Below are positions 902 through 50,723 of a DNA stretch of 64,000 nt, one piece after another. Position numbers and translations under genes: made by a program. Source of the stretch: Octopus vulgaris (Eukaryota); the NCBI GenBank assembly GCA_951406725.2, contig OX597818.1, positions 99,386,001 through 99,450,000 on the forward strand, written 5' to 3'. The notes under the pieces were generated by a model. The model was given only the letters and a program-made list of their open reading frames with translations, did no database searches and was not told the DNA's origin. Every line of letters begins with the position of its first letter. Positions within the stretch are counted from its first letter, which is position 1.

Positions 902-1119
902 ATACTTTATTTAAAGCAGCAGAAAATTCAACAAAATCTGTTACTCTGAGTTTCTCGTTGCCGTTCATCACACAGTTTTTGCTAGAAAAAACTGTCTGAT
1001 GAACGGCAACGAGATTTTTGTTGAATTTTCTGGTGCTTTAAATAAAGCATATTACTCTACCATTGGTATTTGAGTACTCTTTTTTCCACCTTGTTTCACA
1101 TTTATGTGTTTACTCCGGT
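902..1119. mobile_element. Foldback of two divergent hammerhead-bearing copies (Penelope-like pLTR remnant) inserted in (TA)n
   Basis: 902-980 is the reverse complement of 986-1050. The minus copy (938-975) reads CUGU GUGAUGA ACG-GCAA-CGA GAAA CUC-A-GAG UA ACAG. The plus copy has an intact CUGAUGA (996-1002) but has lost about 16 nt covering the rest of GAAA, stem III and the cut site. Confidence 0.7.
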
Positions 1120-1914
1120 ATATATATATATATATATATATATATATATATATATATATATATATATATATGAATATATAGGGAGAGAGAGACACACACA
1201 CAGGGAGAGACAGGGAGAGAGAGAGAGAGAGAGAGAAAGAGAGAGAGTGTGAAAGAGAAAGAGAGAGAGAGAGGTAGAGAGAGAGAGGAAGATAGAGAGA
1301 GAGAGAGAAAGAAAGAGAGAGAGAGAGAGAAAGAGAGAGAGAGAGAGAGATATTTCTATATGTAGATGACTAAATATGTATCTGCTCGCCGATAATACAT
1401 GAATATGCATAATTTTGTATTATACAAACGGCTATTTTCAGTATCTTAAAATGTGTATTCATGTCTTGTATATATAAAAAAAGACGAATACATGTCTATT
1501 CTTGTCGATAATATAGTTCTATGCATGTTAGATATACACATACGTAAATGAATGTATCATAGTTCATTATGTCATGAAAACCTTGGAGAAGAGATCATTA
1601 TGTTTGTTAACTTCGCGGTCCCAATCTTAGCTAAAATTTTGTTCAATATTATATGAATTTGTACGGCCAATGGGCAAGTCTCTTTCTGTAGCAATAAGCA
1701 TGCATTTATAAGTCAAATTCTTCTCTTCAGACAAAACGTTAACATTTTGTCTAAGAGAAAGGCGCATTATTTTTCCCCTCATCTCTAGTGAGATAAACCG
1801 AGATGAAGTCAACATTAAACCTAAGTACATCTGGAGGGTATTTCCTCTATTTTCCGAGCAACAAGCTAATGTAGTCAATAACTAATATTAGTATATTATT
1901 TTTCTCATCATGTA

Positions 1915-2330
1915 GGCGTAGGAGTGGCTGTGTGGTAAGTAGCTTGCTTACCAACTACATGGTTCCGGGTTCAATCCCACTGCGTGGCACCTTGGGCAAG
2001 TGTCTTCTACTATAGCCTCGGACCGAATCAAAGCCTTGTGAGTGGATTTGGTAGACGGAAACTGAAAGAAGCCCGTCGTATATGTATATATGTGCATGTG
2101 TGTGTATATGTGTATATGCTTGTGTGTTTGTGTTTGTCACCCCAACATCGCTTGACAACCGATGCTGGTGTGTTTACGTCCCCGTAATCTAGCGGTTCGG
2201 CAGAAGAGACCGATAGAATAAGTACTAGGCTTACAAAGAATAAGTCCTGGGGTCGATTTTCTCGACAAAAGGCGGTGCTCCAGCATGGCCGCAGTCAAAT
2301 GACTGAAACAAGTAAAAGAGTAAAAGAGTA
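1915..2330 (+). mobile_element. tRNA-derived SINE family A, full length
   Basis: A box (TGGCTGTGTGG), B box (GGTTCAATCCC), CCTTGGGCAAGT CORE-like motif, internal (TA/TG)n and a (GTAAAAGA)n tail. Multiple homologues occur in the window. Confidence 0.9.
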
Positions 2331-3954
2331 TGTAACTATGTTAATTAAAAAGAAAAAAAAACGTTTATATTAAATTTGTAAACACTAACCTATCTAAATG
2401 TTTTTCATGCTTAAGATACCTTTGGATTATTTATTCTAAATTATATTCTATTATCGTGCGTCGGTTAATGTGCCATTTGGTATGTCTATTTACTTTGTGA
2501 TTTTTCTCAACATCAACAATTACCATAAAGAACACACTTAATGAATGGCGTCTGAAGGGGACCTGAAGTATTCAGAGTTATTTCCCGCAGTTGCCTAATT
2601 AATTACATTGACAAATTTGTTGTTCACCTCATGAATATTTTTAATTATCTTTATAGACATCTTTGCATTAATTATTTTAGCACTAAAATACCTATTGAGG
2701 TCGCTTCTACGAAGCCTAATGATTATAAGACTCTTATTTAGATCTAAGACCAGCATTCCACCGACCTCAATACTTGACTGGCAAGTTATTTTCTCGACCC
2801 CGAAAAGATAAAAGGCAAGGTTGACTCGGCGGAATTTGAGCTCGGAATGTAGAGACGAGAAACAAATTAAAAAAAACATTTTCCCAACGTTCTGAGAGTT
2901 GGCTGCCATCAAATGAAATGACGATATTTCCAAACCCTTCCAATTTAAACTCAAGATCTGTGAACCAGTAGTCCAATAGTTTATGCGAGGCGGCATTTCA
3001 GTTTACTCTAACGTAATGGCTATATGCCGGAATTTGTAGAATATGATACTAATAGTTTTTGTTTATTGATTATCCTCATATCAGCCATGTCCAAAAGCCA
3101 ATGATCAATAACCTGCCTTCCTTTTTTATCACGCATACTGTTATAGAGCGGATATACATGTATTAGACAATATAATACATTAGATACTTGCCCGTTATTG
3201 CTCAGTTTCACCTGCAATGATTATTGATGTGTTTATGCATAGGAGTATTTAAATGTCACAGTATGAAAAATATTGTTACCATTTTACATAACGTGCACAG
3301 AAATCACAAGGGAGACAACTTAATTTTTCTAAATTAGTAGTTTCCCTTCTGGTTGCCACATGAGTTCAACACCCCACCTCTTTAACCTGCACTCAAATTT
3401 TACAAATGGTATGACATCCATATGAATAGTCCGGCCACGACCATACCATACCAGTGAAAGTACCGTAACAGACAAATAATTATACTCAGTATACCCATAC
3501 GCATATACACACATCATTACACAAACACGCACATCTGTATTTGTGTTAAGACATTTCAAAATATTTCTATGACTGTCTGTCTGTCATCTGTATATCTATC
3601 TATCTATCTATCTATCTATCTATCTATCTGTGTGTATGTGTGTTTCTCTATGGGTGTAAGCACAAACACACATGCACGCCTGCACACTTGCATGCATGCA
3701 CACACGCGCGTGCAAACACACATAATGTATATAATTGAATATATAGATCAATATGTTTCAACACTTCAGAGAGGAATTAACTCCGTGGCAATCTGATTGT
3801 GATCATGGTTCAAATCATTCGCTTACATCACATAGAAAGTTGTGGAAAATAATAACTATCACAACTTTCCATTTCCATTTAGAAATAAACGAGAGAAATA
3901 TCATTAAATATATGTTATAGAGTATATTTATTTGCTCGAAGCTAGTAATTCCCC

Positions 3955-4055
3955 CTGTCGTTACTCAGAATTTCTCACTCGATGCGAGCTTTTAGGCGAC
4001 AACACAGATGTTGTCGCCTGAACGATCACTTTGAACGTGAAGCTCAGAGAGAATC
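3955..4055. mobile_element. Degenerate divergent pair of hammerhead-like motifs around an 11-bp hairpin
   Basis: Central hairpin AGGCGACAACA-caga-TGTTGTCGCCT (3994-4019). The minus arm ends GAAA UUC-U-GAG UA ACGAC, pairing back to GUCG. The plus arm is CUGAACGA...GAAG CUC-A-GAG. The 5' cores are decayed. (TA)n follows. Confidence 0.4.
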
Positions 4056-4306
4056 ACCAGTTTCAAACAAATATACATACATATATAAATATGTATGTAT
4101 GTATATATATATATATATATATATATATATATATATATATATATATATATATATATATATATATATATATACATACATATATGCATGCCCATATTACTTA
4201 CATACAAACGTACATAGATACATACACACATACATATACACAAATATATGTACATATATGTGTGCGTTTGCATATGATATATCCATCAAGATTTCTAGAT
4301 TTCTGT

Positions 4307-4610
4307 TTATATATATATATATATATATATATATATATATATATATATATATATATATATATATATATATATATATATATATATATATATATATATATAT
4401 ATATATATATATATATATATATATATATATATATATATATATATATATATATATATATATATATATATATATATATATATATATATATATATATATATAT
4501 ATATATATATATATATATATATATATATACATATATATATATATATATATATATATATATATATATATATATATATATGTATATATATACATATATATAC
4601 ATATATATAC
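4307..4610. repeat. ~300-bp (TA)n microsatellite, longest of dozens of (TA)n, (CA)n, (GA)n, (TATC)n, (TCTG)n and (TATG)n tracts
   Basis: Directly visible. Confidence 0.98.
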
Positions 4611-48901: not shown

Positions 48902-48941
48902 TGGTACTCAGAGTTTCAAGCGTGATGCTAATCTTCAGCCA
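48902..48941 (-). ncRNA. Minimal type I hammerhead ribozyme motif, canonical core
   Basis: Minus strand reads UGG CUGAAGA UU-AGC-AUCAC-GCU-U GAAA CUC-U-GAG UA CCA. An inverted partial copy (AGATTAGCGTCATGCTTGAAA) lies at 48969-48989 on +. Confidence 0.7.
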
Positions 48942-48989
48942 TTTTGAATTCAAATTCAAATTCAAAGCAGATTAGCGTCATGCTTGAAA

Positions 48990-49310
48990 GAGTCTTCTAC
49001 TATAGCCTTGGGAAGACCAAAGACTTGTGAGTGGATTTGGGTGACGGAAACTGAAAGAAGCCCGTCGTATATATATATATCTGTGTGTGTGTGTGTGTGT
49101 TTGTATGTGTGTGTGTGTATTTGAGTGTCTGTGTTTGTCCACCCAACATCGCTTCACAAGTGATGCTGGTGTGTTTACGTCCCCGTAACTTAGCGAGTCG
49201 GGAAGGGACCGATAGAAAAAGTACTAGGCTTGCAAAGAATTAGTCCTGGGATCGATTTGCCCCACCATGGCTGCAGTCATCTGACTGTTACAAGTAAAAG
49301 AATAAAAGAA
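48990..49310 (+). mobile_element. SINE family A, 5'-truncated
   Basis: Starts at gtcttctactatagcc and runs through the tail; abuts the inverted hammerhead fragment. Confidence 0.85.
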
Positions 49311-49568
49311 TATTTATTATATATGTATATATGTACATACATATATATATATATATATATATATATTCACGTCTATATATGTATTTATTTATTAATTTAT
49401 TTATTTACATTACTTCAACATCCAAATTTCCTTATTCTACATTGAGAGAAGAAAGAGATGGACGCTTCAATTCTATGCTGTTGCCGCATTATGTCGTACG
49501 CGAATGAGAGGATTTGCATCCCCAACCAAGAATTTTTGATGTAACACATGTCCTTGTGGAAGTTGTGC

Positions 49569-49646
49569 GCGGCTGAAGAAGGCCACAGACATACATTATG
49601 CATTGTTATAAATCTGTCTAATAAAGGCCCGAAACATATGTACCGC
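49569..49646 (+). ncRNA. Type I hammerhead ribozyme motif, canonical core, extended stem II
   Basis: GCGG CUGAAGA A-GGCC[41-nt insert]GGCC-C GAAA CAUAUG UA CCGC. Stem I is GCGG/CCGC, stem III is the palindrome ACAUAUGU, and the predicted cut is after A49642. A (TA)n tract begins about 40 nt downstream. Confidence 0.75.
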
Positions 49647-50519
49647 TGAATCCTTGGCATCATGTTTTTATTTTGATCAATTCATATATATATATATATA
49701 TATATATATATATATATATATATATGTAGGCATGTGTGTGTGTGTATTAAGTATATATGTACACACTCACAGACACACAGAGACATATGTATACATGCTC
49801 ATAGATACGTACAATCACACACATACATATAAATACATATATTTATATCTCTATGTATATTTGAATGTATGTATATATGTATGTATAGATATCTATGTAT
49901 GTATATATATATATATATATATATATATATATATATATATATATATATATATATATATATATATATATATATATATATATATATGTATATATATATATAC
50001 ATGTATGATTGCATATATTTATAATATATATTAAACACACCCATACACGCATATGTAAATGTAAGTATAAATACATGTATGTATGTAGCGTCTAATAACA
50101 CTGTACTTATCCCAGGTCCTTGCTTGTTCATGTTTGGATTGACTACACACACACACACACCCACACCCACACCCACCCACACACACACACACACACACAC
50201 ACACACACACATACACACACACACACACACACACACACACATATATATAAATATATATATATTTCTGCCTGTGTGTGGATGTATGTACTTCTCAAATTAT
50301 AGGAGCTTTTGCAATGATATATTGATGTATTGATATCTATTCTCGCTCCGTAAGTAATAAATTAGCGTTTCTGAAGAATTGAATTGTCTCCCGAGTTTCT
50401 GACACAAAGTCCACTTCACTCCTAATACTACTCTTTCGTAGTAAGCCATATATATATATATATATATATATATATATATATATATATATATATATATATA
50501 TATATATATATATATATAT

Positions 50520-50723
50520 CGCCATGTTGAATCGCTAGCTTCTGCACGCATTTTTTTCTCTCCTTGTTTCTCTCCGTGTTTCTTTTCTGTGTATATTTCT
50601 GTTGAAGAGCATAGGCTCGTAATGCAAAAGACTTGTTTTATTTATATTCCTGAGTGCCATACTAATACAATTGTTTGTTTGTACTCCACCTGCCTTCGTC
50701 TTTATTTTCATAAAGCTTCCCGT
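50520..50723 (+). mobile_element. ~200-bp repeat with hammerhead-like motif, copy 2, flanked by (TA)n on both sides
   Basis: cgccatg..atcgcta..ttttttctctccttgtttctctcc..CUGUUGA A-GAGC-AUAG-GCUC GUAA UGCA AAAG..ttcctgag..atactaataca matches 20480-20681. Confidence 0.6.

What the first reader, a model, noticed from the sequence alone, without database searches (positions are those of the whole stretch)
902..50723. A dispersed collection of minimal hammerhead ribozyme motifs parked at (TA)n microsatellites
Seen: eight loci (902-1050, 3955-4055, 5570-5604, 20554-20589, 30340-30391, 34375-35140, 48902-48989, 49569-49646), plus a second copy of the 20554 unit at 50596-50630. They follow the order stem I - NUGANNA-like core - stem II - GAAA - tiny stem III - U(A/C) - stem I', although their stems are mostly unrelated in sequence. 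Stem III is palindromic or nearly so (ACCGGU, ACAGCUGU, ACAUAUGU, ACGCGCGU, ACGU, ACUC-N-GAGU). Each motif sits within about 100 nt of a (TA)n or TA-rich tract. Established: Penelope-like elements carry minimal type I hammerheads with palindromic stem III in their pseudo-LTRs, thought to cleave as dimers. Inference: several distinct PLE or retrozyme-like families target (TA)n here and leave short non-coding ribozyme cassettes, about one per 8 kb, which ordinary repeat masking would hide among microsatellites.
Basis: partly seen in the sequence, partly recalled or inferred. Interest (0 to 1): 0.85.

Follow-up and report, generated by a model that had tools for sequence, protein, structure and literature searches.

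The report
Penelope retroelement tails carrying hammerhead ribozymes
The scattered hammerhead-shaped RNA motifs are real and likely all lie in the leftover tail ends of Penelope-like jumping genes that insert at TA repeats, which is a known arrangement, but one very abundant family keeps a U at a core position that is almost always A, and whether it still cuts is untested.

Summary
All nine named loci are hammerhead motifs or decayed copies; a tenth (204-244) was missed. A descriptor finds 8 loci against 0.96 in shuffles (0 of 200 reach it). Nine of ten lie 37-93 nt upstream of (TA)n, against 4.9% of random positions. They belong to nine repeat families. Four families (C, D, E, G) were traced to the 3' end of Penelope-like GIY-YIG ORFs (C and D also with reverse transcriptase); five were not traced. 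They are 5'-truncated element ends with inverted arms and optional tails, not retrozymes. This is published biology (PMC4209133, PMC8557442), and the scan has met it on other DNA. Four named copies are broken. The new detail is family D (20554, 50596): its core reads CUGUNGA. The genome holds 15,730 exact U6 copies against 629 others. U6 also sits behind long ORFs (18 of 18 motif matches). In 55 copies only N7 and H17, the two free hammerhead positions, vary. Family C has an A3-U8 pair and family E has U4C. No cleavage was tested, and a key paper (Lünse 2017) could not be read.

The parts
204..244 (+). Its element runs from before base 1 to about 325, then (TA)n
   Evidence: two more copies in L202; no ORF link found
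900..1118 (-). Family B inverted two-arm insertion (234 bp in most copies). Hammerhead 938-975 on minus with a private C3G change; partial opposite arm 992-1014 on plus; 70-nt tail on one arm only; TA on both sides
   Evidence: 24 of 24 other copies have CUGAUGA; no ORF link (in L059 and L025 a TA tract separates it from the neighbouring ORF element)
3955..4055 (-). Family B2 decayed hammerhead relic (motif about 3955-4000, core CUAAAAG) with an inverted remnant
   Evidence: only 2 other matches in the genome; one relative has an intact CUGAAGA core
5505..5612 (-). Family C 3' end; hammerhead 5570-5604 intact with an A3-U8 core pair and stem III ACCGGU
   Evidence: core AUGAAUA in 23 of 24 other copies; lies about 270 nt behind an RT+GIY-YIG ORF in L041; ORF hits upstream in 7 of 24 further loci
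20480..20681 (+). Family D 3' end; hammerhead-like motif 20554-20589 with the family-wide U6 core (CUGUNGA) and stem III ACGU; this copy has private stem II changes
30275..30480 (-). Family E 3' end; hammerhead 30340-30391 with the family-wide U4C core (CCGAUGA) and stem III ACAGCUGU
   Evidence: CCGAUGA in 17 of 19 other copies; endonuclease end upstream in 1 of 19 loci, L126
34375..35140 (.). Family F inverted two-arm insertion. Plus arm hammerhead 34962-35095 with a 105-nt domain II, broken here (G5C, stem I' mismatch); minus arm keeps only the GAAA half (34427-34440)
   Evidence: CUGAAGA in 15 of 19 other copies; no ORF link found
48832..48989 (-). Family B3 3' end; hammerhead 48902-48941 intact, canonical CUGAAGA core, 3-bp stem I; decayed inverted arm on plus
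   Evidence: no ORF link found
49380..49683 (+). Family G 3' end; hammerhead 49569-49646 intact, canonical core, stem III ACAUAUGU; young family (96-98% identity)
   Evidence: endonuclease end plus about 2 kb of 3' UTR upstream in 2 of 8 long loci, L181 and L186
50519..50723 (+). Second family D copy (79% identical to the first); motif 50596-50630 has the U6 core but GAAA changed to GUAA, broken

Best explanation
These loci are likely all the 3' ends (pseudo-LTRs) of Penelope-like retrotransposons from nine families, four of which are shown here to lie behind a GIY-YIG endonuclease ORF, left at (TA)n repeats, likely by reverse transcription that stopped early, each carrying its family's minimal hammerhead motif, which is predicted to cut only as a dimer or with protein help. 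Steps: (1) shown: a fixed 3' end at (TA)n, ragged or recurrent 5' ends, inverted second arms and an optional tail on one arm. (2) Inferred from PMC8557442 and PMC11167929: the GIY-YIG endonuclease, whose cysteine linker is thought to aim at microsatellites, nicks (TA)n, and the RT starts at one of two sites near the RNA 3' end, which gives copies with or without the tail. (3) Inferred: because the hammerhead lies 40-130 nt from the 3' end, even the shortest copies carry it, so the motif litters the genome. (4) Inferred: the motif is under selection in the source elements, not in these solo copies, which decay; a solo copy has no partner to extend stem III and is probably inert. (5) Inferred, about even odds: family D's U6 core is a weak but still working variant that is tolerated because the element's protein helps folding.
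For: Motif excess over shuffles. TA polarity, 9 of 10 on the 3' side. TA at the 3' end in D copies picked by protein, not by DNA: all 19 sense motif matches, TA 95-133 nt downstream; 16 of 19 D copies picked by a TA-free query. ORF links: C in L041 and 7 of 24 loci; D in 19 of 20 ORF-selected loci, sense, with no TA tract between in the 18 where this was checked, including a 770-aa RT+GIY-YIG frame; G in 2 of 8; E in 1 of 19. Other RT+GIY-YIG families in the genome carry their own hammerheads 3' of the ORF. Inverted arm within 1.5 kb in 7 of 19 G loci; tail on one arm only. Stem I differs in sequence between families yet pairs in each. Cysteine linkers CX4CxxC (C, D) and CxCX5C (E, G) match the text of PMC8557442.
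Against: Families A, B, B2, B3 and F were not traced to an ORF. The E link rests on one locus, and Pfam names neither the G nor the L166 endonuclease fragment. TA association is weak for older families: E 9 of 19, F 6 of 19. The high TA counts for B, C and G (23/24, 23/24, 18/19) are inflated because the queries ended in a few TA bases. No head-to-tail tandem pseudo-LTR was examined. No cleavage data. Mutational scanning of another hammerhead found low activity for all single changes in CUGA (PMC9901934, passages), which argues against U6 and C4 cores working alone.
Confidence: 0.9

Rival explanations
1. Some families, B above all, are true non-autonomous elements copied as a unit (a fixed 234-bp hairpin cassette) by a Penelope protein in trans.
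For: All 40 scored B copies span the same 219-nt query; 22 of 25 share one asymmetric central loop; both arms carry the same T/A variant in 25 of 25. No upstream ORF seen.
Against: The search ranks copies most like the query, so a fixed shape is partly selected. An inverted pair with a tail on one arm is the ordinary Penelope insertion product (PMC8557442 Fig. 2 legend). A read-through RNA would bury the hammerhead in a long hairpin (-144 kcal/mol). D also looked like a fixed 200-bp cassette until ORF-linked copies were found. This rival changes the label for B, not the Penelope origin.
Confidence: 0.35
2. Family D's U6 motif no longer cleaves; it is kept as an RNA structure or protein-binding site, or simply rides along in a lineage that does not need cleavage.
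For: Changes at A6 lower activity (A6C under 0.1 per min, PMC3088659; low activity of all single CUGA mutants, PMC9901934). Hammerhead-dead mutants did not impair insertion in vitro for an anole element (PMC11167929). Naiads thrive without hammerheads (PMC8557442).
Against: In 55 copies spanning subfamilies about 78-82% alike, 0 of 34 motif columns other than N7 and H17 are polymorphic at 15% or more, against 35 of 156 flank columns; H17 is A, U or once C, never G. That is the pattern of a catalytic fold. The copies are related, so Fisher's p = 0.0009 overstates the case.
Confidence: 0.5
3. The loci are non-LTR retrozymes (tandem non-coding units replicating through circular RNA).
For: Type I hammerheads in short non-coding repeats; retrozymes are proposed to derive from Penelope pLTRs (bioRxiv 10.64898/2026.07.22.740005).
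Against: No head-to-tail array carries any of the motifs in the window; paired copies are inverted; four families continue into ORFs.
Confidence: 0.05
4. The motifs are chance matches in AT-rich, microsatellite-rich DNA.
For: The relaxed descriptor is not above chance in 200 kb elsewhere (8 against 5.2); two window hits look spurious; TA tracts are frequent (1.1-1.4 per kb).
Against: 0 of 200 shuffles reach the window count; each named locus has relatives with the motif as good or better; 15,730 exact copies of one motif against 0 for the reversed pattern.
Confidence: 0.01

Closest known systems
Minimal hammerheads (min-HHRs) of metazoan Penelope-like elements (Cervera and De la Pena 2014, PMC4209133)
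   Same: Type I, short stem I, palindromic stem III, many sequence families per genome, mostly solo copies from truncated elements, pairs on opposite strands 100-700 bp apart, U3-A8 variant (family A here).
   Different: Family-wide U6 (D), A3-U8 (C) and U4C (E, and a sister family of D) cores, and a 105-nt domain II (F), are not in the parts of that paper that I read (parts 1-2 of 4; supplement passages).
C-terminal EN+ Penelope-like elements of the Neptune/Nematis type and the Hydra clade (Craig et al. 2021, PMC8557442)
   Same: RT then GIY-YIG, cysteine linker, hammerhead near the 3' end, 5' truncation, inverted 5' copy, optional tail, (TA)n insertion bias. C and D have CX4CxxC; E and G have CxCX5C plus CxxC and CxH around the conserved E and N, as described for Hydra.
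   Different: Clade is by motif only; no tree with reference elements was built. Tails here are about 35-70 nt against the 30-40 bp described.
Poseidon of Anolis carolinensis, PAc (Frangieh et al. 2024, PMC11167929)
   Same: Two 3' ends (tail or no tail), AT-rich targets, hammerhead in the pLTR.
   Different: There the hammerhead was shown to cut only with the protein present; nothing was assayed here, and targets here are (TA)n tracts.
Natural hammerhead core variants A6C (phage Bcep176) and U4C (viroid) (PMC3088659, PMC7151607)
   Same: A normally invariant CUGA position is changed in a natural sequence.
   Different: Those are single examples; A6U here is the norm in at least 15,730 copies and in ORF-bearing elements.
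Non-LTR retrozymes of animals (bioRxiv 10.64898/2026.07.22.740005; PMC7229834)
   Same: Type I hammerhead in non-coding repeats related to pLTRs.
   Different: No tandem arrays; copies are truncated element ends.

Membership tests
PLE minimal type I hammerhead | Type I order with paired stem I and stem II around core / GAAA / UH | tested here: met
   Descriptor hits at 204, 938, 5570, 20554, 30340, 48902, 49569; family F copies
PLE minimal type I hammerhead | Short palindromic stem III | tested here: met
   ACCGGU, ACUCAGAGU, ACGU, ACAGCUGU, ACGCGCGU, ACUCUGAGU, ACAUAUGU; required by the descriptor, so not independent for the hits it found
PLE minimal type I hammerhead | Consensus core C3 U4 G5 A6 N7 G8 A9, or the published U3-A8 swap | tested here: inconclusive
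   Met by families A, B, B3, F, G; not met by C (A3-U8, 23 of 24), D (U6, 54 of 54) and E (C4, 17 of 19)
PLE minimal type I hammerhead | Extra nucleotide after A9 and a G10.1-C11.1 pair | tested here: inconclusive
   Both present in D and G; C has G-C without the extra base; B, B3 and E open stem II with a mismatch
PLE minimal type I hammerhead | Located in the pseudo-LTR 3' of a PLE ORF | tested here: met
   C, D, G, E; not shown for A, B, B2, B3, F
PLE minimal type I hammerhead | Self-cleavage as a dimer or with protein help | not testable with these tools
   Only assembled contigs were available, which cannot show RNA ends
EN+ Penelope-like element | Single ORF with RT followed by GIY-YIG | tested here: met
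   D: 770-aa frame, RVT_1 E 6e-8, GIY-YIG E 0.005 below cut-off. C: tblastn over RT and EN parts. E and G: endonuclease end only, by motif
EN+ Penelope-like element | 5' truncation, inverted 5' copy, optional tail | tested here: met
EN+ Penelope-like element | Head-to-tail partial tandem giving direct pseudo-LTRs | not tested
   5' ends of full-length copies were not examined
Neptune/Nematis-type PLE (families C, D) | CX2-5CxxC linker before GIY-YIG | tested here: met
   CX4CxxC in L107, L213, L214; phylogeny not tested
Hydra-clade PLE (families E, G) | CxCX5C linker; CxxC and CxH beside the conserved E and N | tested here: met
   L181, L186, L126 against the text
Hydra-clade PLE (families E, G) | RWK and DKT motifs in RT; placement in a tree | not tested
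   No RT part was recovered for E or G; Nematis has a similar linker and is not excluded
Non-LTR retrozyme | Head-to-tail tandem units each with a hammerhead | tested here: not met
   No tandem array with a complete motif in each unit in the window; pairs are inverted

The most novel reading that the evidence does not exclude
Family D is a natural hammerhead that cleaves with U at the 'invariant' position 6, kept under catalytic constraint in an autonomous retroelement with over 15,000 copies. Together with family-wide U4C and A3-U8 cores in the same genome, it shows that Penelope hammerheads escape the CUGA rule because the element's own protein or dimer context rescues weak cores, and that standard descriptors miss the most abundant ribozyme family in this genome.
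Probability: 0.25. Interest if true: 0.65.

Novelty: new variant of a known kind. Interest (0 to 1): 0.38.

Why it matters
The broad picture (Penelope tails with minimal hammerheads at TA repeats) is known and adds little. The variant cores give a direct test of an open question: what Penelope hammerheads do and whether they need the element's protein. D (U6) and its sister family (C4, A6) share stems II and III, so they form a natural pair for a cleavage assay, next to canonical G and B3 as controls. If U6 cleaves, hammerhead search rules need widening; if it does not, a successful element has kept the fold without the chemistry, which points to a non-catalytic role.

Tried and rejected
Rfam scan: only microsatellite-driven miRNA matches among the 150 rows shown. 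The repeat finder was swamped by microsatellites. Pfam family PF26215 (recalled accession) is not in the library. B next to RT+GIY-YIG ORFs in L059 and L025 first looked like a link, but those ORFs end in their own hammerhead and a TA tract separates them from B: rejected. ORF hits near G in L006 and near F in L143 are separate or nested elements: rejected. tblastn of PLE proteins against the window found nothing, so no ORF remnant lies here. MITE reading of B: rejected, since the inverted repeat is not terminal at one end and each arm is a pLTR piece. Monomer folding by ViennaRNA recovers a hammerhead-like shape only for C, F and G, as expected for weak stems; uninformative. Sequencing runs: no RNA holder listed; all 22 were contigs. 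Laying four of them showed, within the D motif, other letters at 5% or more only at N7 and H17, but no ends or expression can be read from contigs. A second 200-kb genome sample was not obtained, so the background rests on 20 stretches. Literature: 'hammerhead + A6U + core' listed one paper, on twister; 'hammerhead + A3-U8' none; 'hammerhead ribozyme + octopus' four, none on this. Lünse, Weinberg and Breaker 2017 and Brill et al. 2024 are not held.

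
Full report
Setting. The window is G000:C5:99386001-99450000 in a 2.8-Gb assembly of 227 contigs. It is AT-rich and full of microsatellites. 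A SINE-like repeat with ten matches in the window looks to me like an octopus SINE; that label is recalled and was not tested.

Noticed in passing
window 1912-2330, and 5351-5493, 17955-18028, 20341-20478, 20869-20952, 38348-38509, 44890-45382, 48988-49312, 55547-55908: A SINE-like repeat of about 420 bp with an internal TA/TG tract, ten matches in the window; family B3 at 48832-48989 abuts or interrupts one copy. Looks like an octopus SINE (recalled).
   Followed up: no
window 51-190: Three 44-bp tandem copies just upstream of the family A hammerhead; the two L202 copies have a single unit, so this is a local expansion.
   Followed up: partly
window 23950-24347: 184-bp tandem repeat, 2.2 copies, 93% matches; related pieces at 18930-19230, 36317-36351 and 39683-39725, probably another SINE family.
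   Followed up: no
window 900-1118; L072-L095: In family B both arms carry the same T/A variant in 25 of 25 copies while an asymmetric central loop is shared by 22 of 25. This hints at arm-to-arm copying or recurrent joining at a CTAG palindrome.
   Followed up: partly
window 34962-35095; L142-L160: Family F has a 105-nt, well-folded domain II between core and GAAA, longer than usual descriptors allow.
   Followed up: partly
L051-L056 and one search list: A young RT+GIY-YIG family with many 781-aa open frames and a U3-A8 hammerhead about 900 nt behind the ORF; some copies have a second 330-480 aa open frame upstream with no Pfam match.
   Followed up: no
L016, L037, L060, L061, L065, L108, L137, L164, L176: U4C cores (CCGANGA) recur in several further families, including D's sister, so relaxed CUGA rules look genome-wide.
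   Followed up: partly
L014, L059, L025, L213, L113: Different Penelope families often sit side by side in the same TA tract, consistent with repeated use of (TA)n as a landing site.
   Followed up: no
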